From Mizuhopecten yessoensis (lineage: Eukaryota), in assembly GCF_002113885.1 (NCBI RefSeq), contig NW_018403543.1:1106145-1170144 (forward strand): DNA of 64,000 bases, read 5' to 3'. Shown in pieces: positions 54,001 to 63,000 of the stretch. Position numbers: made by a program. The first letter of the stretch is position 1. Every line of letters starts with the position of its first letter.

Positions 54001-57000
54001 TAGCTCATTTAGTTACACTCGTAGGTTAGTTCTGGTAGAAGATATTTAAATGAAATTTGTATGGTGTCATCAATAATAACATACAATTAAGACGTTTGTA
54101 CGGTACCTACAATAATAATGTAAGAGGAATTACGTTTTAAAGACGTCTATAATTATGTACGACGAGTTCAGTTTTTACGACGTCTTCAATATTTATGTTT
54201 GATAAAAGATTTTCTACGACGGCATCGATAATAACGTAGAGGAATGATGTATGCACGACTTCTATAATAAAATAATGTTCGAGGAATAATATTTGAGCGC
54301 CGTCATCAATTAATACTTAGGAGTAATAACGTTTGAACATTCGGCAAAGATGCAGAAATAACTTTAAATTTTATCCGAATTGATTTTGCGATAGATATAT
54401 CTTACGTTATAGCATGTGACATGTCCCGGTGTGTGATTCTATGACGTGTCTATTGTAGTAGAATGCTGTATGCTTGAGAAAATTATATTATATTTACTGT
54501 CTTAAATGTATACGAATAATCGTTTACAACTCGGAGGAATTTAGAATCGTGCATGAAGGTGCAGCTTAGAGGGTTGGGAAGGTAACATTGAATTGGTTCA
54601 AAAGTCCTTACGTCTACCGTGGCACCTGTCCCGACCACTGTTATCCCACTGGCCACGTCTTGTATAGACACGGTGTTACCTGTAGCATGGAGCCTAACAC
54701 CTCGTCCAAGGACAGTGTGCTGGAGGAGAGGAGATAATTCCGTGACAAATGTTTAACAATAACAAAATCGATACGTTAAACGTCTTGTTCAAGCTATTCT
54801 TAATCTATTCTACCCATCAGAGATAATTTGATAATCGCAATCTACAGAGTGGTTTTGATTTCAGACAGCCACTAGAGCAAAACGTAAGCGATATATTGTA
54901 ATCTGTCTGTAAACAATTTATGAAGGAAATTTTCAGTAATCAGTTTATCTATTTTCATCTTGCTGAAGCACTAAATGTTGAATACTTCTAGATAACAACA
55001 CGTACGTAGGTAGGGCTTGCAAAGAAATGTAATCTATATTACAATTAACCTGATACAAGTTTTATACTTCATCTGTAGCTAAACTATTCTACTTACAAAT
55101 GGATGGTTGCCCAACATGTTTTCACTAAGATATGACATAAACTGCGTCTCAAGTTGCACAATTCCGTCAGTCAATGGAGCAAGGAATACTGATGCCGCGC
55201 CGGCCACCGGGTTCACCGCCGCAAGGGCGGCACTGACAGCCGCTGATACCGCCGACGAACCCCCTGCTGTCGCTGATGACTCTCCTCCTGTTGAGTGTGA
55301 CCCACTTGTCGCATGCGATCCTCCTGTCACTGGTTTGGGTGTATGTAAATGGGTTGACATTCCAGTCCTCCTTGTGTCTCTGGCTGTTCCCAATATTTTA
55401 GCAAGACTTCGGAAGTCATAACTATACACGCCACACACAAATAGTGCCAATATGTAAACTACAAAAACACAGCAAAGAGGTTCAGAAGTAAAATGTTACG
55501 ACTTGAATGAATCAGTCTTATGAAAAAAGATCAAAAGAAATAATTGAACTAATGCTTATTGGGTTATTTTTTACAGGAATGTTGTTAACATGGGTATCTT
55601 TATTAATTAATTAAATTAAAGTCTCAAAGTTCACAAACAAACAAAAATCCCCAGGAAAACATTAAATAAAACCTTCGTAATTTGAATGTGTTTACTGTAT
55701 ATACTTGTATATTATTTATATATACATTTTACATACTCGTTTTTGTTTGTAAACATATCTACTCAAACAAATGCAATTTTAATTAAACGAACTTCCCACA
55801 TATTTTTGTCTAAAGTTCTCGCTATTGTTAACATCATCACACTTTGACCTACTCATCACACTAGCTTACTAGGTTCTTATAAATGTAAATGTGACGGCAT
55901 TATAAAGAAATCAACACGAAAATAACTCCTGTAAAATCCTACAATCACAACGCTTCTATAATAAAAACAAATATTTCATTAAGCGTTTCAATCGTAACGC
56001 TTAATTATACAAAAAAAGTTTATGATTTTAAGCAACGGATAATGTAACACATTAAGCGTTTTTTGTACACTAAGCATTGTCATTTAGCGCTTATCTCGCT
56101 AACACCTTTCTATAACTATACTCGTATAGGTTAGAAATGATCCACCAAATGTCATTTTCTTTACTTTACAAACTTGTTTGTATCGACCGTTGTTACCCCT
56201 CTTCTCCCTGTGCGTCTACATAATCAAGTTTGTTTTTTTAAAAGTTGAAAATCTGTTGAAAATTAATTACGTTTATGACGTCTTACCTGTCAACCTCATC
56301 CTGGCAAGCCTTGTCACTGGGCTATCTATTGACTGAACTATATAAACACTCTTATATATCGCTGGGATCTGACAACTGATAAACTGGAAGGCCTAAGTAA
56401 GACTCTCGTCGAAACGAAACTTAACATTGTTTTGTTGAAACAAAAAATTTGTGTTCAATAATTATGGCAAAGAATTAATTGATATAGTTTCTGGTATATT
56501 TCCATGCTGCTAATGATTCTTTGTAATTTACTGTCCCGAATTCTGTATGTTAGAAAATGAAAGAATCAATAAAAAATGTAACCAATACATTTATTTCTTA
56601 GGATATTTGTGAAATTCCAATTGGTAAAATTCATTTTTAACATTTTTAACAATATGTTCAAACAACGAACGTCTAAACGGATATCACGTGAGAAAGGTTG
56701 TGTGTGTAGCGTAAGGCTTGATAAGAATTATAATCGTATCCTGTACATTACTTACAGAGTAAACTATTAAAGATGAATGCTCTGCTCGTTCTGAGTGTTG
56801 TTGTCAGCCTCTTCTGGACCACAGTCGGATTCACAGTTAAAAGGACAGGCGATAAGTATGATATTGAGAAGTCCATTTTTTTATATTTTTTTTTGCTTTC
56901 ACAGCCTTTCACAACAAATCTGTTGTCATTAAGTTGATATTGATCGGGTTTCTCAGCCTTGTACGATGCATTGCTATGATGATATTGGGGTTAATTGTTT

Positions 57001-60000: not shown

Positions 60001-63000
60001 TAGAGATCTCATTGGTTTTTGATTAATATTTTGTTTTACAGAGCTCATTTTGTTGTTATGTTAACATTCTGTTTTACAGAGCTCATTTTGTTGTTATGTT
60101 AACATTCTGTTTTACAGAGCTCATTTTGTTGTGATGTTAACGTTTTGTTTTACAGAGCTCATTTTGTTGTTATGTTAACATTCTGTTTTACAGAGCTCAT
60201 TTTGTTGTTATGTTAACATTCTGTTTTACAAAGCTCATTTTGTTGTGATGTTAACGTTTTGTTTTACAAAGCTCATTTTGTTGTGATGTTTTCATTCTGT
60301 TTAACAGAGCTCATTTTGTTGTGATGTTAACATTCTGTTTTACAAAGCTCATTTTGTTGTTATGTTATCATTCTGTTTTACAGAGCTCATTTTGTTGTTA
60401 TGTTCACCATTTGTTTAATAGAGCTCATTGCTACCGTTAGGTTGACTTTTATGTTTTATAGAGCTCATTGGTGCTGTAAGATCAATCCAACCAAAACGGT
60501 TGTAGATTCCCGAACCGTGACAGTCACTGTAGTCGTCCCAGTAAAACACACCCATCATTCCAGCTGTGGATTCCTGTGGCTCAGTCGATGCGGCAGTTCA
60601 TCATATACCACTGGGTAATTAAAATAGTTTTTACGTAGTATTTTCACCACCACATAGGTGTCTCTATAGCATGTGTAATTATATTTATTAGATGTCAAGG
60701 TAACGAAGATAAGTTACGAATTCACAGCAAACGGCAAAATCCTATTACATTTCCACATGACTCGTATTCAGTACATATTCGCGGGGGTTAAATTTCGCTG
60801 TGCACCCGAATCCCATGTGTCGTTCAAAGTATTTTGAGCGTCATTTTTTAAGGGTTTAACCTCAAAATATAGGTAAACCGTTTGAAAACACTGATCCTAA
60901 GCGTCCTCATCCACGAATGAGTGACCTCACTCGAAAGAAAATCAAATGTGTATGTACGTTTGTAGGAGTAAACTGTGATCAATTTATCACCTACCGTGTA
61001 CACATACATATGTTGTGGCCACTTATATGTAATTGTTGTTTTCACATGGACTGTCATGTTGTCCATTGCTGATCTGATTTGAGTTCATTTTAGCTTGCAT
61101 TACAGCGTTGGGTTAACGATATTTTTAACATGTGTGATAAGGTCCGTAAACGTGGTTAACCTTTTCGATAATTTCGCTGGTGCTTAGAATTCGTGGTTAT
61201 TAGTCAAAGCGCGAATATAGCGAAATTAAAACCCCCGCGAAATATAACCGCTATACATTAGTTCATCTTAACACTGTAAGAAAAGTAACAAGTGACATAT
61301 CATATTCTATCAACCGCGCTTACAACTTTAGGTACAAAACAGCGTACAGAGCGAGTTACAAAAGTAGGCTGGTACCAACAACCTGCCCTGACCAGCATCT
61401 GGTGTGCTGTAAAGACTACATAAAAGTTGCTGACCAGTGTTTGCGTAAGTAATGATATGGAACTAATGCTTGTGAAATATTTGATTTGACGAATTTTTTT
61501 TTAAATTACAATAAATAAACAGTACGATAAATAAACAAACAAATTAATTAGTTAGAAAGAAAAAACAGATAAATAAAACAAAACAAAATCCGTCCAAGAA
61601 CAACTTTGTGAATGTTTTTCAATGCGAAATAGTGTTAAATTTAACGAAAACGTTTGATCATTATTTTGTAATTACAGCATCTGCATCTGACATGATGTGA
61701 ATTATGTAGTAATGATGTAAAATATGTTCAAGTAACAAAAATATTTTTATTTTATTTAGCTCAAAGTCGACTCCCAGACATAAAAGACGACTTGCTGCAT
61801 TTGCACTCTGCAGGAATAGTTGTTGGTTAAAGAAAAAATAGAAAATACTGTAACAAGAAAATATTAAGTAAAAATTCGTGGGTTAAGAAAGGATTTGAAT
61901 CATTGTGACAAAGAAATAATAAAAATATATTTTAAACTTGAATTAGTATGTTGTTCTGCGTTTACTCATCAAATTTGTTTTATATTATCTTATCTATTTA
62001 TACGTCAATGTGACAAGATGATATTGTCCGTTTTACTCCAAATGAAAGTGAAAATACGGTTATATAATTTTTAAATTATAATTATGATATTTATGTCATA
62101 TTTACTGTACACAGCTCATGTGACAGAGAATTTACAATTATAACTCTGTTACCATTTGTAACTCTGTTACCCATCATATTCTATCACTTACGGGAAAGAC
62201 TATTTATATAAAAAAAAATATAAACTTTTATTCGTCCTTTACAATAAATTACACAGTATCAATTACCTGTATCCATATACACTTAAAATAGACATATCTA
62301 CATATATAAAACATAAAAACAGAGAAATGTGTTTTTGAAGTCCGGAAATCGAAGTTGAAAGAAGAGACAGAACAAGAATGGGAGGTGTTAATCAGGTCTA
62401 ATGTCTATTTTTTTCTCCATTTGATCTCCTTTTCTGACTGTGATATTAAGAACAAGACCATACACATTTTCGGCACACAAATTCTAAGGAGCCACACAAA
62501 CGAAAGGAAAGAGGCCAGAAATCCCCAACACAAAAGGGAAATGAAAGCACCAGCGATCTGAGACCGATAACAATTATAATTGGCAGACAATACAATCTCA
62601 TAGATTATAAAGGGAAGAAAATGAATTTCAGAATTTTTGAATGCTGGAAAATGAAAAATCAGAGTGTATCAATGGTAGACAATAAATTTCCATATTGCAT
62701 TAAAGGCAGACCATAAAATGTCATAGTCGGAATTCAGATCATGAGGTAACCGTACAATATCTTAAGCGTTGACTGGAGGTAGAAAATCATTTACTTAGTA
62801 GTTCACAATGAAATGACAATAGGACGCATTTATCGAGAAATTCTAATAGTTAAAACGGACACTGAAGAAGTGAGCTAACAGTTACCTGTAATCATCATAA
62901 AGGGAGGAGTCTCACATACTGACAGAAGGAAATCAAACGATTGTGAAGGTTATAGTTTTATGTTTTATTTCATTTTCGAGGCAAATACATGTGATTAGCC

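What the first reader, a model, noticed from the sequence alone, without database searches (positions are those of the whole stretch)
56773..61830. Tandem pair of small secreted 8-cysteine EMI-like proteins, invisible as whole ORFs
Seen: two 4-exon genes share intron phases 2,2,1, a signal peptide, the pattern WCC-x-C-x-C-x-CPxxHLVCCxxY(V/I)KxxDQCL, and a C-terminal tail ending AG(L/I)(I/VV)G*. The sequence between cysteines is highly diverged. Established: EMI domains end in CCxG(Y/W)...C and normally sit at the N-terminus of large multidomain proteins. Inference: this is a stand-alone variant with an extra Cys pair and may be an undescribed mollusc secreted family (shell matrix, byssus/mucus or immune). 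I do not recognise it.
Basis: partly seen in the sequence, partly recalled or inferred. Interest (0 to 1): 0.68.

Follow-up and report, generated by a model that had tools for sequence, protein, structure and literature searches.

The report
Small secreted EMI-like scallop proteins
Three neighbouring scallop genes encode small secreted cysteine-rich proteins of an uncharacterised family, shared by molluscs, annelids, ribbon worms and bryozoans, that resembles the EMI domain of extracellular-matrix proteins.

Summary
Both four-exon genes are real. They have GT/AG introns in phases 2,2,1, an N-terminal hydrophobic leader, eight cysteines from WCC onward and a tail ending in Gly.

They are not unannotated. 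Every exon piece lies in order in the NCBI proteins LOC110449086 (147 aa) and LOC110448601 (171 aa) of Mizuhopecten yessoensis, both named "uncharacterized".

The pair is really a cluster. A third member lies on the minus strand at 63469-62995 and is cut by the window end.

A whole-library profile search found 43 relatives, 38 of them 220 aa or shorter. Named members come from Mollusca, Annelida, Nemertea and Bryozoa, so a shell- or byssus-specific role is unlikely.

The link to EMI is consistent but weak. Pfam EMI is the only recurrent family (4 of 45 members, 11-13 bits against a cut-off of 25), and the structural neighbours are EMI-bearing families at TM 0.38-0.50.

Basic sites before the domain and a terminal Gly or Gly-basic end in 40 of 57 members suggest prohormone-like processing.

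No paper describing the family was found. My own structure and complex predictions never ran.

The parts
56773..56855 (+). Gene A exon 1: start codon, hydrophobic leader, ...VKRTGD, ends in phase 2
   Evidence: translation, GT donor. (the piece is found in NCBI protein P0001). (hydropathy 3.04).
57100..57285 (+). Gene A exon 2: SNWCC...HQC...WDC (first four Cys). N-glycosylation sequons NFT and NVS.
   Evidence: (100% identity to LOC110449086).
57625..57743 (+). Gene A exon 3: ...GVCPTEHLVCCEGYVKHQDQCL (last four Cys), ends in phase 1
57990..58045 (+). Gene A exon 4: tail SSAINSLQALIDAGLIG and stop TAG. AATAAA lies 40 nt downstream, at 58086.
59202..59380 (+). Ends in phase 2.
60462..60614 (+). 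Gene B exon 2: AHWCC...SSCGFLWLSRC (first four Cys)
   Evidence: (100% identity to LOC110448601).
61332..61444 (+). Gene B exon 3: ...TTCPDQHLVCCKDYIKVADQCL (last four Cys), ends in phase 1
61760..61829 (+). Gene B exon 4: tail QSRLPDIKDDLLHLHSAGIVVG and stop TAA. AATAAA lies 88 nt downstream, at 61918.
63357..63469 (-). Gene C exon 3 (third family member). It is 113 nt, like exon 3 of B: QQTFYVTAYYTHVRSGDCPDRHIVCCNMYIMVAESCV. AG acceptor, GTAAGT donor, ends in phase 1. Exons 1-2 are not in the window.
   Evidence: 34 of 37 residues are identical to Pecten maximus LOC117325093 (P0041).
62995..63038 (-). Gene C exon 4: tail LDDLHELTTQLVG and stop TAA. AATAAA lies 25 nt downstream, at 62969 on the minus strand.
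   Evidence: 12 of 13 residues are identical to the end of P0041.
59915..60484 (+). 38-bp minisatellite of about 14 units filling the 3' part of intron 1 of gene B. Its last unit is the true acceptor plus the codons for AHWCC.

Best explanation
Layer 1, largely shown. Genes A, B and C are intact, spliced protein-coding genes of one old family. Each encodes a 147-171 aa precursor with a signal-peptide-like leader and, in B and C types, a short conserved pro-region. Then comes a roughly 85-residue beta-rich domain that opens with (G-D-N-S)-H/N-W-C-C and closes with C-P-x(4)-C-C-x-(G/D)-(Y/F)-x(6)-C. Last is a roughly 20-residue tail, (D/S)-x-L-x-x-L-x-x-x-G-hydrophobic-hydrophobic-Gly. The domain is a divergent, eight-cysteine relative or look-alike of the EMI domain.

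Layer 2, inferred. The precursor enters the ER and forms four disulfides: three equivalent to those of EMI, plus one extra that probably links the second Cys of WCC to the Cys of CP. The CGxxGxxxC pair is probably bonded to itself, because one Owenia member has lost exactly those two cysteines. The precursor is cut by a furin/convertase-type protease at the basic site 5-12 residues before WCC. Its terminal Gly (or Gly plus Lys/Arg in relatives) is probably converted to a C-terminal amide. The mature 12-14 kDa protein is released as a diffusible extracellular ligand that binds its partner through the EMI-like beta sheet and the conserved tail. It therefore behaves more like a protein hormone or cytokine than like a building block of matrix.

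My odds are about 0.9 for layer 1 and about 0.4 for layer 2.
For: Gene structure:
- Canonical splice sites and identical phases in A and B. C shares the last two intron positions and phases.
- All exon pieces lie in order in the NCBI proteins, and the split codons give the intervening residues N, R, K (A) and T, G, P (B).
- Poly(A) signals lie 25-88 nt after the stops.

Selection:
- In the conserved 20-codon block, codon positions 1 and 2 match in 10-16 of 20 but position 3 in only 4-5 of 20.
- Orthologues in Pecten maximus are 69% (A) and 76% (B) identical.

Family:
- 43 proteins at E<=1e-3 and 7 at E<=1e-10 in 1.84 billion representatives. 38 of the 43 are 220 aa or shorter.
- Four Cys are invariant and the other four are present in at least 90%.
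- 53 of 57 members have a hydrophobic leader, and none has a later membrane-like segment.
- The B-type clade (support 98/98) holds bivalves, a chiton, Owenia and two nemerteans.

Transcripts of relatives: complete proteins of 168 and 169 aa sit on contigs of 577 and 941 nt, too short to hold introns.

EMI likeness:
- Pfam EMI hits cover model positions 2-68 of 69 in three members of different clades.
- Atlas features score 0.78 to an EMI+EGF cluster.
- Atlas structural neighbours are MEGF10/11, Draper, EGFL7 and a small EMI+EGF cluster.

Processing:
- 30 of 57 members end in Gly and 10 more in Gly plus 1-4 Lys/Arg.
- A dibasic pair lies within 16 residues before WCC in 29 of 55 members, and an RxxR/K motif alone in 12 more.
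- An RxxR-type motif is aligned in the B-type orthologues.
- That a C-terminal Gly, dibasic sites and cysteines are the accepted marks of such precursors is stated in the methods passage of PMC5996578.

Cys3-Cys4 pairing: P0012 has 6 Cys and lacks exactly that pair.
Against: - I have no expression, proteomic or binding data for any member.
- Pfam EMI is never significant (best 13.2 bits against a cut-off of 25). 41 of 45 members, and 0 of 10 further B-type orthologues, show no EMI hit at all.
- Atlas TM-scores are 0.50 or lower, and the call does not show which part of the neighbours aligns.
- 14 of 55 members have no basic site before WCC, and 17 of 57 do not end in Gly or Gly-basic.
- In two metagenome-derived proteins the tail is not terminal but runs on into Link (hyaluronan-binding) domains (Xlink E 1.7e-41). 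Two others carry three tandem copies of the domain. Both architectures look more like matrix proteins than hormones.
- From my own knowledge, amidation of a folded 12-14 kDa protein would be unusual.
- The scallop ganglion neuropeptide survey (PMC5996578, passages read) names no precursor that I can match to A or B. Its sequences are in supplements that I could not open.
- The disulfide map is inference only, because no model of my own could be made.
Confidence: 0.45

Rival explanations
1. Matrix-associated adaptor. The mature protein is not a diffusible signal. It is deposited in extracellular matrix (including, in molluscs, shell, byssus or mucus) and uses the EMI-like domain for multimerisation or for docking other matrix proteins, as EMI does in EMILINs, multimerins and EGFL7.
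For: - EMI is the nearest known kind.
- EMI is called a key site of protein-protein interaction in PMC11990869 (passages read). The title of Doliana 2000, seen only in reference lists, links EMI to gC1q binding and multimerisation.
- Fused relatives have the domain N-terminal to Link domains (P0015, P0018), and others have three tandem copies (P0029, P0040).
- One member comes from the pearl oyster Pinctada fucata.
Against: - The family occurs in shell-less nemerteans and an annelid, so a shell or byssus role cannot be its general function.
- A, B and C have no repeats, no low-complexity or strongly acidic stretches and no other domain.
- The processing-type signals are not typical of structural matrix proteins.
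- Searches for 'EMI domain' with 'shell matrix', 'mollusc' or 'oyster' found nothing relevant.
Confidence: 0.25
2. Immune bridging molecule. It is a soluble opsonin-like factor made by haemocytes. It binds microbes, apoptotic cells or C1q-domain proteins and hands them to phagocytic receptors, in the manner of the secreted Nimrod B proteins of insects.
For: - Structural neighbours include Draper and MEGF10/11 clusters.
- Nimrod-family proteins carry a CCxGY motif after the signal peptide (PMC4073527, passages read). Secreted NimB4 binds apoptotic corpses (PMC8419693, abstract and passages read).
- A cGAS-like receptor gene lies 18 kb upstream.
- The family is expanded in Tubulanus: 10 named members.
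Against: - There are no NIM/EGF repeats, which define the Nimrod family.
- The B-type shows one-to-one conservation across three phyla with an invariant tail. That is not the usual pattern of fast-evolving immune effectors.
- The neighbouring cGLR gene is separated by repeats and says little.
- There are no induction data.
Confidence: 0.15
3. Not EMI-related. It is an independent cysteine-rich fold whose WC...CCxGY...C spacing converged on EMI. The weak Pfam and atlas signals would come from cysteine and beta-strand composition.
For: - All Pfam EMI scores lie below half the cut-off, and 41 of 45 members have none.
- TM is 0.50 or lower, and one of the ten structural rows is a bacterial cluster.
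- The family has eight rather than six Cys, is not always single and is not always N-terminal.
- Profile searches of PDB sequences found nothing real: 0 hits, and a septin at E 0.28.
Against: - Three independent members from different clades align end to end with the EMI model in the same register.
- EMI is the only family hit by more than two members, apart from none at all.
- 8 of 10 structural rows belong to EMI-bearing families. For six of these rows the presence of EMI rests on my recall, since their listed top Pfam families do not include it.
- No experimental EMI structure exists (PMC11990869, passage read), so silence from the PDB is uninformative.
Confidence: 0.15
4. Gene-prediction artefact or decaying pseudogenes with no product.
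For: I saw no transcript or peptide evidence for A, B or C themselves. The NCBI names are automatic.
Against: - The reading frames are intact across four exons with canonical sites.
- Orthologues with the same length and motifs exist in two other scallops.
- Amino-acid conservation coexists with randomised third positions.
- Relatives sit on intron-free short contigs.
Confidence: 0.03

Closest known systems
EMI domain (Pfam PF07546) of EMILINs, multimerins, EGFL7, MEGF10/11/Draper
   Same: - It is extracellular and cysteine-rich, with about 70-85 beta-rich residues.
- It opens with (N/H)-W-C and closes with C-C-x-G-(Y/F)...C.
- An internal C-G-x-x-G-x-x-x-C loop resembles what I recall of the EMI consensus.
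- Weak Pfam hits span model positions 2-68 of 69.
- EMI-bearing families are the nearest predicted structures.
   Different: - Eight Cys instead of six: an extra Cys directly after the first, and one six to seven residues before the CC.
- Scores never reach the family cut-off.
- The domain stands alone with a conserved tail instead of heading a large multidomain protein.
[quoted passage not shown]
Secreted Nimrod B proteins of insects (CCxGY motif plus NIM repeats)
   Same: A signal peptide followed by a reduced EMI-type CCxGY element; a secreted, soluble protein (PMC4073527 and PMC8419693, passages read).
   Different: There are no NIM/EGF repeats at all. The first half of the domain (WCC...C...C) is complete. 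The proteins are much smaller, and the family is lophotrochozoan rather than insect.
Prohormone or neuropeptide-type precursors (signal peptide, pro-region, basic cleavage site, C-terminal Gly or Gly-Lys/Arg)
   Same: - A leader is present in 53 of 57 members.
- A basic site lies before the domain in 41 of 55.
- The C-terminus is Gly or Gly-basic in 40 of 57.
- These are the criteria listed in PMC5996578 (passage read).
   Different: - The presumed mature product is a folded protein of 116-124 residues with four disulfides, not a short peptide.
- No peptide has been detected and no receptor is known.
- I cannot match it to any precursor named in PMC5996578 or PMC8557429 (passages read only; sequence lists are in closed supplements).

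Membership tests
EMI domain (PF07546) | Score at or above Pfam's gathering cut-off (25 bits) | tested here: not met
   The best score is 13.2 bits, E 0.16. 4 of 45 family members give any EMI hit at E<1, and 0 of 10 further B-type orthologues do. Exon-wise scans of A and B gave none.
EMI domain (PF07546) | Terminal motifs: W-C near the start and C-C-x-G-(Y/W/F)...C at the end | tested here: met
WCC and CC-x-(G/D)-(Y/F)-x6-C are present in A, B and the family consensus. The rest is my recall.
EMI domain (PF07546) | Six cysteines forming three disulfides (PMC11949838, passage) | tested here: not met
   There are eight Cys in A, B and most relatives. Six of them may correspond to those of EMI, but the bonds could not be modelled.
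EMI domain (PF07546) | Single copy at the N-terminus of a larger multidomain protein (PMC11949838 and PMC11990869, passages) | tested here: not met
   A, B and 38 of 43 relatives are 220 aa or shorter and have no other domain. Two relatives do have the domain N-terminal to Link domains, and two have three tandem copies.
EMI domain (PF07546) | EMI fold | tested here: inconclusive
   The atlas's own model of protein B (pLDDT 0.75, pTM 0.49) has EMI-bearing families in 8 of 10 neighbour rows at TM 0.38-0.50. My own model never ran. No experimental EMI structure exists (PMC11990869, passage).
EMI domain (PF07546) | O-fucosylation of a Thr five residues after the first Cys by POFUT3/4 | not testable with these tools
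   A Thr lies 5-7 residues after the first Cys in 26 of 52 members, including A and B. This is only a positional resemblance.
Nimrod superfamily | NIM (EGF-like) repeats C-terminal to a CCxGY motif (PMC4073527, passage) | tested here: not met
   No EGF-type family was found in any of the 45 members scanned. A tail of only 17-24 residues follows the domain.
Prohormone-type precursor | Signal peptide | tested here: met
   This is a hydropathy heuristic only: 53 of 57 members, including A, B and the P. maximus orthologue of C. No dedicated signal-peptide predictor was available.
Prohormone-type precursor | Basic (dibasic or RxxR) cleavage site before the mature part | tested here: inconclusive
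   A dibasic pair is present in 29 of 55 members, RxxR/K only in 12 and none in 14. A has KR and B has RESR. Cleavage itself was not shown.
Prohormone-type precursor | C-terminal Gly, or Gly followed by Lys/Arg, as amidation signal | tested here: met
   30 of 57 members end in Gly and 10 of 57 in Gly plus 1-4 basic residues. A, B and C all end in Gly. Amidation itself was not shown.
Prohormone-type precursor | Mature product detected in neurosecretory tissue or by peptidomics | not testable with these tools

The most novel reading that the evidence does not exclude
The family is a so far unrecognised class of lophotrochozoan protein hormone or cytokine. It would be a convertase-processed, C-terminally amidated, four-disulfide EMI-fold ligand that predates the split of molluscs, annelids, nemerteans and bryozoans.

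The acidic A-type (pI 4.75) and basic B-type (pI 8.65) paralogues have stayed linked in scallops and oysters, and they may act together as a heterodimer.
Probability: 0.2. Interest if true: 0.75.

Novelty: new variant of a known kind. Interest (0 to 1): 0.5.

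Why it matters
If the EMI likeness is real, this is the first EMI-type module known to work as a small free-standing secreted protein. It has its own extra disulfide and a conserved tail, and it is conserved across at least four lophotrochozoan phyla.

That would widen the known uses of a domain so far tied to large matrix proteins and engulfment receptors.

If the processing signals are real, it adds a candidate orphan ligand family to animals whose endocrine and cytokine repertoires are poorly known. 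Several of them are farmed bivalves.

The B-type orthologue group is easy to follow across species and could be tested directly by in situ hybridisation, peptidomics and receptor or partner fishing.

Tried and rejected
- **Exon-wise Pfam scans** of six exon pieces gave nothing but a chance viral hit at E 0.06.
- Full-length work used the public proteins that the exon-wise searches returned.
- **PDB sequence searches** with profiles A1 and A3 gave 0 hits and a chance septin match at E 0.28.
- **Atlas search among named clusters by features** for protein B gave no usable hit.
- **Structure prediction.** The job failed. I therefore have no model of my own, no Foldseek search and no disulfide map.
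- **Complex prediction** (mature A-type with mature B-type). No verdict was ever returned, so the heterodimer idea is untested.
- **Literature.**
  - 17 gene or accession identifiers of family members gave 0 papers.
  - 'EMI domain' with 'mollusc' gave 4 irrelevant papers, with 'shell matrix' 1 irrelevant paper and with 'oyster' 0.
  - One search was badly designed, because generic terms swamped it, and it tests nothing.
  - US spellings and subscription journals were not covered.
- **'Vamide'.** This scallop precursor in PMC5996578 caught my eye because B would end in Val-amide. The paper says it has no GenBank similarity, and its sequence is in a closed supplement, so it stays unresolved.
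- **UniRef name 'Hydrophobin'** for the A-type paralogue P0002 has no support, since Pfam finds nothing.
- **** (bacterial promoter and terminator scan of 100 bases) has no bearing on a eukaryotic gene.
- **Collections not used.** No other mollusc genome DNA could be examined, so intron positions and synteny outside this window rest on protein records and contig lengths only.
- **Rejected readings.** Both dropped because there is no hydrophobic stretch beyond the leader.
  - GPI anchor.
  - Membrane protein.

Full report
**What is in the sequence**

On the plus strand between 56773 and 61829 lie two four-exon genes.
- Gene A has exons 56773-56855, 57100-57285, 57625-57743 and 57990-58045.
- All six introns begin with GT and end with AG behind a pyrimidine-rich stretch. 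The exon lengths give phases 2, 2, 1 in both genes.
- Translated exon by exon, both show a hydrophobic leader, WCC, two single cysteines, CPxxHLVCCxxY(V/I)KxxDQCL and a tail ending AGLIG or AGIVVG.
- Each has exactly eight cysteines from WCC onward.
- No stop-to-stop ORF of 100 aa or more spans more than one exon.
- AATAAA signals follow the stops by 40 and 88 nt.

The only changes are a start codon three codons further upstream in B and an end coordinate one base too far.

**How the spliced models were handled**

Six exon pieces were scanned against Pfam one by one without result. Exon 2 of each gene was then sent alone to the protein collection.
- Both returned a 100% identical public protein of Mizuhopecten yessoensis: LOC110449086 (147 aa, P0001) and LOC110448601 (171 aa, P0004), each named 'uncharacterized protein'.
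- Every exon piece is found in order in these proteins. The single residues between the pieces (N, R, K in A; T, G, P in B) are those given by the split codons.
- All full-length analyses below used these public records and their relatives by id.

**A cluster, not a pair**

A search of the window with the exon peptides found a third copy of the conserved exon on the minus strand.
- Its exon 3 is 63469-63357. It is 113 nt, the same length as exon 3 of B, with an AG acceptor and a GTAAGT donor in phase 1.
- Its exon 4 is 63038-62995. It encodes LDDLHELTTQLVG and a stop, followed by AATAAA after 25 nt.
- The two pieces are 34 of 37 and 12 of 13 residues identical to Pecten maximus LOC117325093 (166 aa, P0041).
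- The first two exons of this gene C are not in the 530 bases that remain before the window ends.
- A and B lie 1156 bp apart. B and C are convergent, with 1165 bp between their stops.

**Age of the duplication**

- A and B share no DNA repeat, and their proteins are only 25-30% identical. BLASTP aligns just 41 residues (E 6e-09).
- Profiles of the two subfamilies align over 109 columns, from GDNSNWCC to the last residue, with probability 98.7% and E 1.4e-16.
- In the best conserved 20-codon block, first and second codon positions match in 10-16 of 20 and third positions in 4-5 of 20, which is chance level.
- These are old paralogues under purifying selection.
- M. yessoensis has a second A-type (P0002, 82% identical to A) and a second B-type (P0059, 60% identical to B) together on another scaffold of 790,838 bp. 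It has a fourth type (P0016, LOC110448613) on the same scaffold as the window. P0016 has no full match in the window, only the weak cross-hits to the A and B exons that every relative gives.

**The family**

A profile of five scallop proteins was read against 1.84 billion representative proteins.
- It found 43 proteins at E<=1e-3, 7 at E<=1e-10 and 1 at E<=1e-30. 38 of the 43 are 220 aa or shorter, and most are matched over nearly the whole profile.
- One long repetitive hit without the WCC motif (P0026) looked spurious and was dropped.
- In the alignments, four cysteines are invariant and the other four are present in at least 90% of rows.
- The consensus reads GDNSHWCC ... CGxxGxxxC ... Y ... 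Y ... CPxxxLVCCxGY ... C ... LxxLxxxGLxG.
- 53 of 57 collected members start with a hydrophobic leader, and none has a later membrane-like segment.

Named members come from these groups:

| Group | Species |
|---|---|
| Scallops | Mizuhopecten, Pecten, Ylistrum |
| Oysters | Saccostrea (two species), Crassostrea virginica, Magallana gigas, Ostrea edulis |
| Pearl oyster | Pinctada fucata |
| Mussel | Mytilus edulis |
| Chiton | Liolophura sinensis |
| Annelid | Owenia fusiformis |
| Nemerteans | Tubulanus polymorphus, Lineus longissimus |
| Bryozoan | Watersipora subatra |

The lineages of four of these were checked. Six carry no name. All names seen are 'uncharacterized', 'unnamed' or 'hypothetical', apart from the unsupported UniRef label 'Hydrophobin' on P0002.

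The atlas also points to a rotifer cluster of 173-aa 'secreted proteins' (feature score 0.91; TM 0.42). I could not inspect it.

**Tree**

The maximum-likelihood tree had 46 rows, each trimmed to start six residues before WCC. Fifteen rows were left out: fragments, near-duplicates, fusions and multi-copy proteins.
- The B-type forms a clade (support 98/98) that holds the bivalves, the chiton, one Owenia protein and one protein each from Tubulanus and Lineus.
- The scallop and oyster A-types form another clade (91/95).
- The C and D types fall elsewhere.
- B is therefore an orthologue group older than the mollusc-annelid-nemertean split.

Linkage is suggested by the records:
- The P. maximus orthologues of A and B have consecutive gene numbers.
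- The P. maximus orthologues of A, B and C share one contig.
- The Ylistrum A-type and B-type sit on one contig of 2.1 Mb.
- The Saccostrea cucullata A-type and B-like sit on one contig of 339 kb.

I could not look at those genomes.

**Are such genes expressed?**

I have no transcript for A, B or C. Among relatives, complete proteins of 168 and 169 aa lie on contigs of 577 and 941 nt, and fused forms of 382 and 462 aa lie on contigs of 1267 and 1458 nt. These leave no room for introns, so they are most simply assembled transcripts. That reading is an inference.

**Relation to EMI**

By sequence the link is weak.
- Across 45 members, EMI (PF07546) is matched by four. It is the only family matched by more than two.
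- P0004 (gene B), a Tubulanus protein and a chiton protein each align to model positions 2-68 of 69, at E 0.16-0.22 and about 13 bits. A fourth aligns to positions 20-68 at E 0.62.
- The cut-off is 25 bits, and ten further B-type orthologues give no hit.

By predicted structure:
- The atlas's own model of protein B (pLDDT 0.75, pTM 0.49) has ten neighbour rows.
- Six are clusters of MEGF10, MEGF11 or Draper. One is EGFL7 (EMI in 97% of members). One is a 136-aa cluster with EMI in 97% of members. One is the rotifer cluster and one is bacterial.
- TM by query is 0.38-0.50 over 61-89 residues.
- That MEGF10/11 and Draper begin with an EMI domain is my recall. The call lists other Pfam families for them and does not show which part aligns.

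PDB sequence searches are silent. A 2025 review states that no crystal structure of an EMI domain exists (PMC11990869, passage read), so that silence says little.

Against membership:
- Here there are eight cysteines and the domain stands alone.
- Two relatives carry three tandem copies (P0029, P0040).
- Two metagenome-derived relatives do place the domain at the N-terminus, ahead of Link domains.

I therefore file it as EMI-like, a new variant, and not as a demonstrated member.

**Processing signals**

- 30 of 57 members end in Gly, and 10 more end in Gly followed by one to four Lys or Arg (GK, GR, GKKK, GRKRK). 17 end otherwise, among them the two fusions and some truncated records.
- A dibasic pair lies within 16 residues before WCC in 29 of 55 members, and an RxxR/K motif alone in 12. 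14 have neither.
- A has VKR|TGDNSNWCC and B has LRESR|TSTDETAHWCC. The B-type orthologues share an aligned RxxR-type motif: RVLR, RMVR, RMIR and RELR.
- The pro-region of B and related types has a conserved ...L-x-x-x-x-LP... motif, and the tail has an invariant D-L-x-x-L within the B-type.
- Signal peptide, basic sites, cysteines and a C-terminal Gly are the criteria used to call peptide precursors in this very species (PMC5996578, methods passage read).
- Cleavage and amidation are inferred, not shown.
- One Owenia member has lost exactly the CGxxGxxxC pair of cysteines, which suggests that these two are bonded to each other.
- A Thr lies 5-7 residues after the first Cys in 26 of 52 members. 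This is about where multimerin-1 EMI is O-fucosylated (PMC11949838, figure legend read), but the resemblance is only positional.

**What it most likely does**

I commit to this reading. The genes encode pro-proteins that are secreted, locked by four disulfides, trimmed at the basic site and perhaps amidated. They then act as small soluble ligands through an EMI-like sheet and a conserved tail.
- The gene and family part is about 0.9 likely.
- The ligand part is about 0.4 likely.

The main rival is a matrix adaptor (0.25). It is favoured by what EMI domains usually do and by the Link-domain fusions. An immune bridging factor of the Nimrod B kind is next (0.15). A shell or byssus function for the whole family is unlikely, because nemerteans and an annelid have it. 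The mature A and B parts have opposite charge (pI 4.75 and 8.65). Together with their retained linkage, this prompted a heterodimer test, but that job never ran.

**Novelty**

No paper in the searchable library holds any of 17 identifiers of family members. None combines 'EMI domain' with oyster (0 papers), mollusc (4, irrelevant) or shell matrix (1, irrelevant).

Two neuropeptide surveys, PMC5996578 and PMC8557429, were read in passages only.

The genes themselves are already in NCBI. What would be new is the recognition of the family, its range, its EMI-like nature and its processing signature.

**What stayed unchecked**

- There are no expression data.
- No DNA of other molluscs could be examined.
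- Supplements were closed.
- The taxa of nine representatives were not looked up.

Noticed in passing
window 59915-60484 (+), intron 1 and start of exon 2 of gene B: A 38-bp minisatellite of about 14 units. TRF reports 10.7 copies, 91% matching, at 60023-60429. Its last unit is the true 3' splice site plus the codons for A-H-W-C-C, so each unit is a copy of the intron/exon boundary. Eleven upstream units carry the boundary motif. Eight of them keep the acceptor AG and three have it mutated to AA. Of these eleven, ten run into a stop within 5-43 codons, and the one at 60384 is in frame with exon 2 and would add 26 residues. The unit occurs nowhere else in the window.
   Followed up: partly
window 36335-38560 (+): An uninterrupted 741-aa reading frame with Mab-21 nucleotidyltransferase and Mab-21 C-terminal domains (E 4e-10 and 2e-13). 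Its best solved relative is 'cGAS-like receptor 1' (8gjy, E 1.8e-16). It looks like a single-exon cGLR-type innate immune sensor gene with a long C-terminal extension. Its last 40 or so residues run into a 50-bp tandem repeat at 38454-38853.
   Followed up: partly
window 30199-32845 and 40192-41077: Arrays of a roughly 157-bp satellite on both sides of the cGLR gene, partly in inverted orientation (for example arms 32594-32844 and 40260-40510, 76% complementary). The short ORFs listed there are read-through of this repeat.
   Followed up: no
window 26077-26149 (+): A tRNA-like sequence. Rfam scores it 40.3 bits against a cut-off of 29, but ARAGORN does not call it. It may be the head of a tRNA-derived SINE.
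   Followed up: no
window 14483-14845, 15108-15808, 17121: Runs of N (1065 in all), with a CA/GT-type simple repeat between the first two. They explain the GC dip at 14-16 kb and were left unfilled.
   Followed up: no
window 55079-55495 (-): A 138-aa open frame rich in Ser, Gly and Ala, 1.3 kb upstream of gene A on the other strand. It has no Pfam match, and whether it is an exon is unknown.
   Followed up: partly
public proteins P0002 and P0059 (M. yessoensis, scaffold of 790,838 bp); P0055 and P0007 (Ylistrum balloti): A second A-type/B-type pair sits together on another scaffold. Ylistrum also has two B-types that group with the two scallop B lineages in the tree. The A-B block was therefore probably duplicated before these scallops diverged. 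The UniRef name 'Hydrophobin' for P0002 has no support.
   Followed up: partly
public proteins P0015, P0018, P0029, P0040: Relatives with other architectures. In two proteins from unnamed metagenome or transcript records, the domain plus tail precedes one or two Link (hyaluronan-binding) domains. Two other proteins have three tandem copies of the domain, with T/N instead of W before the CC.
   Followed up: partly
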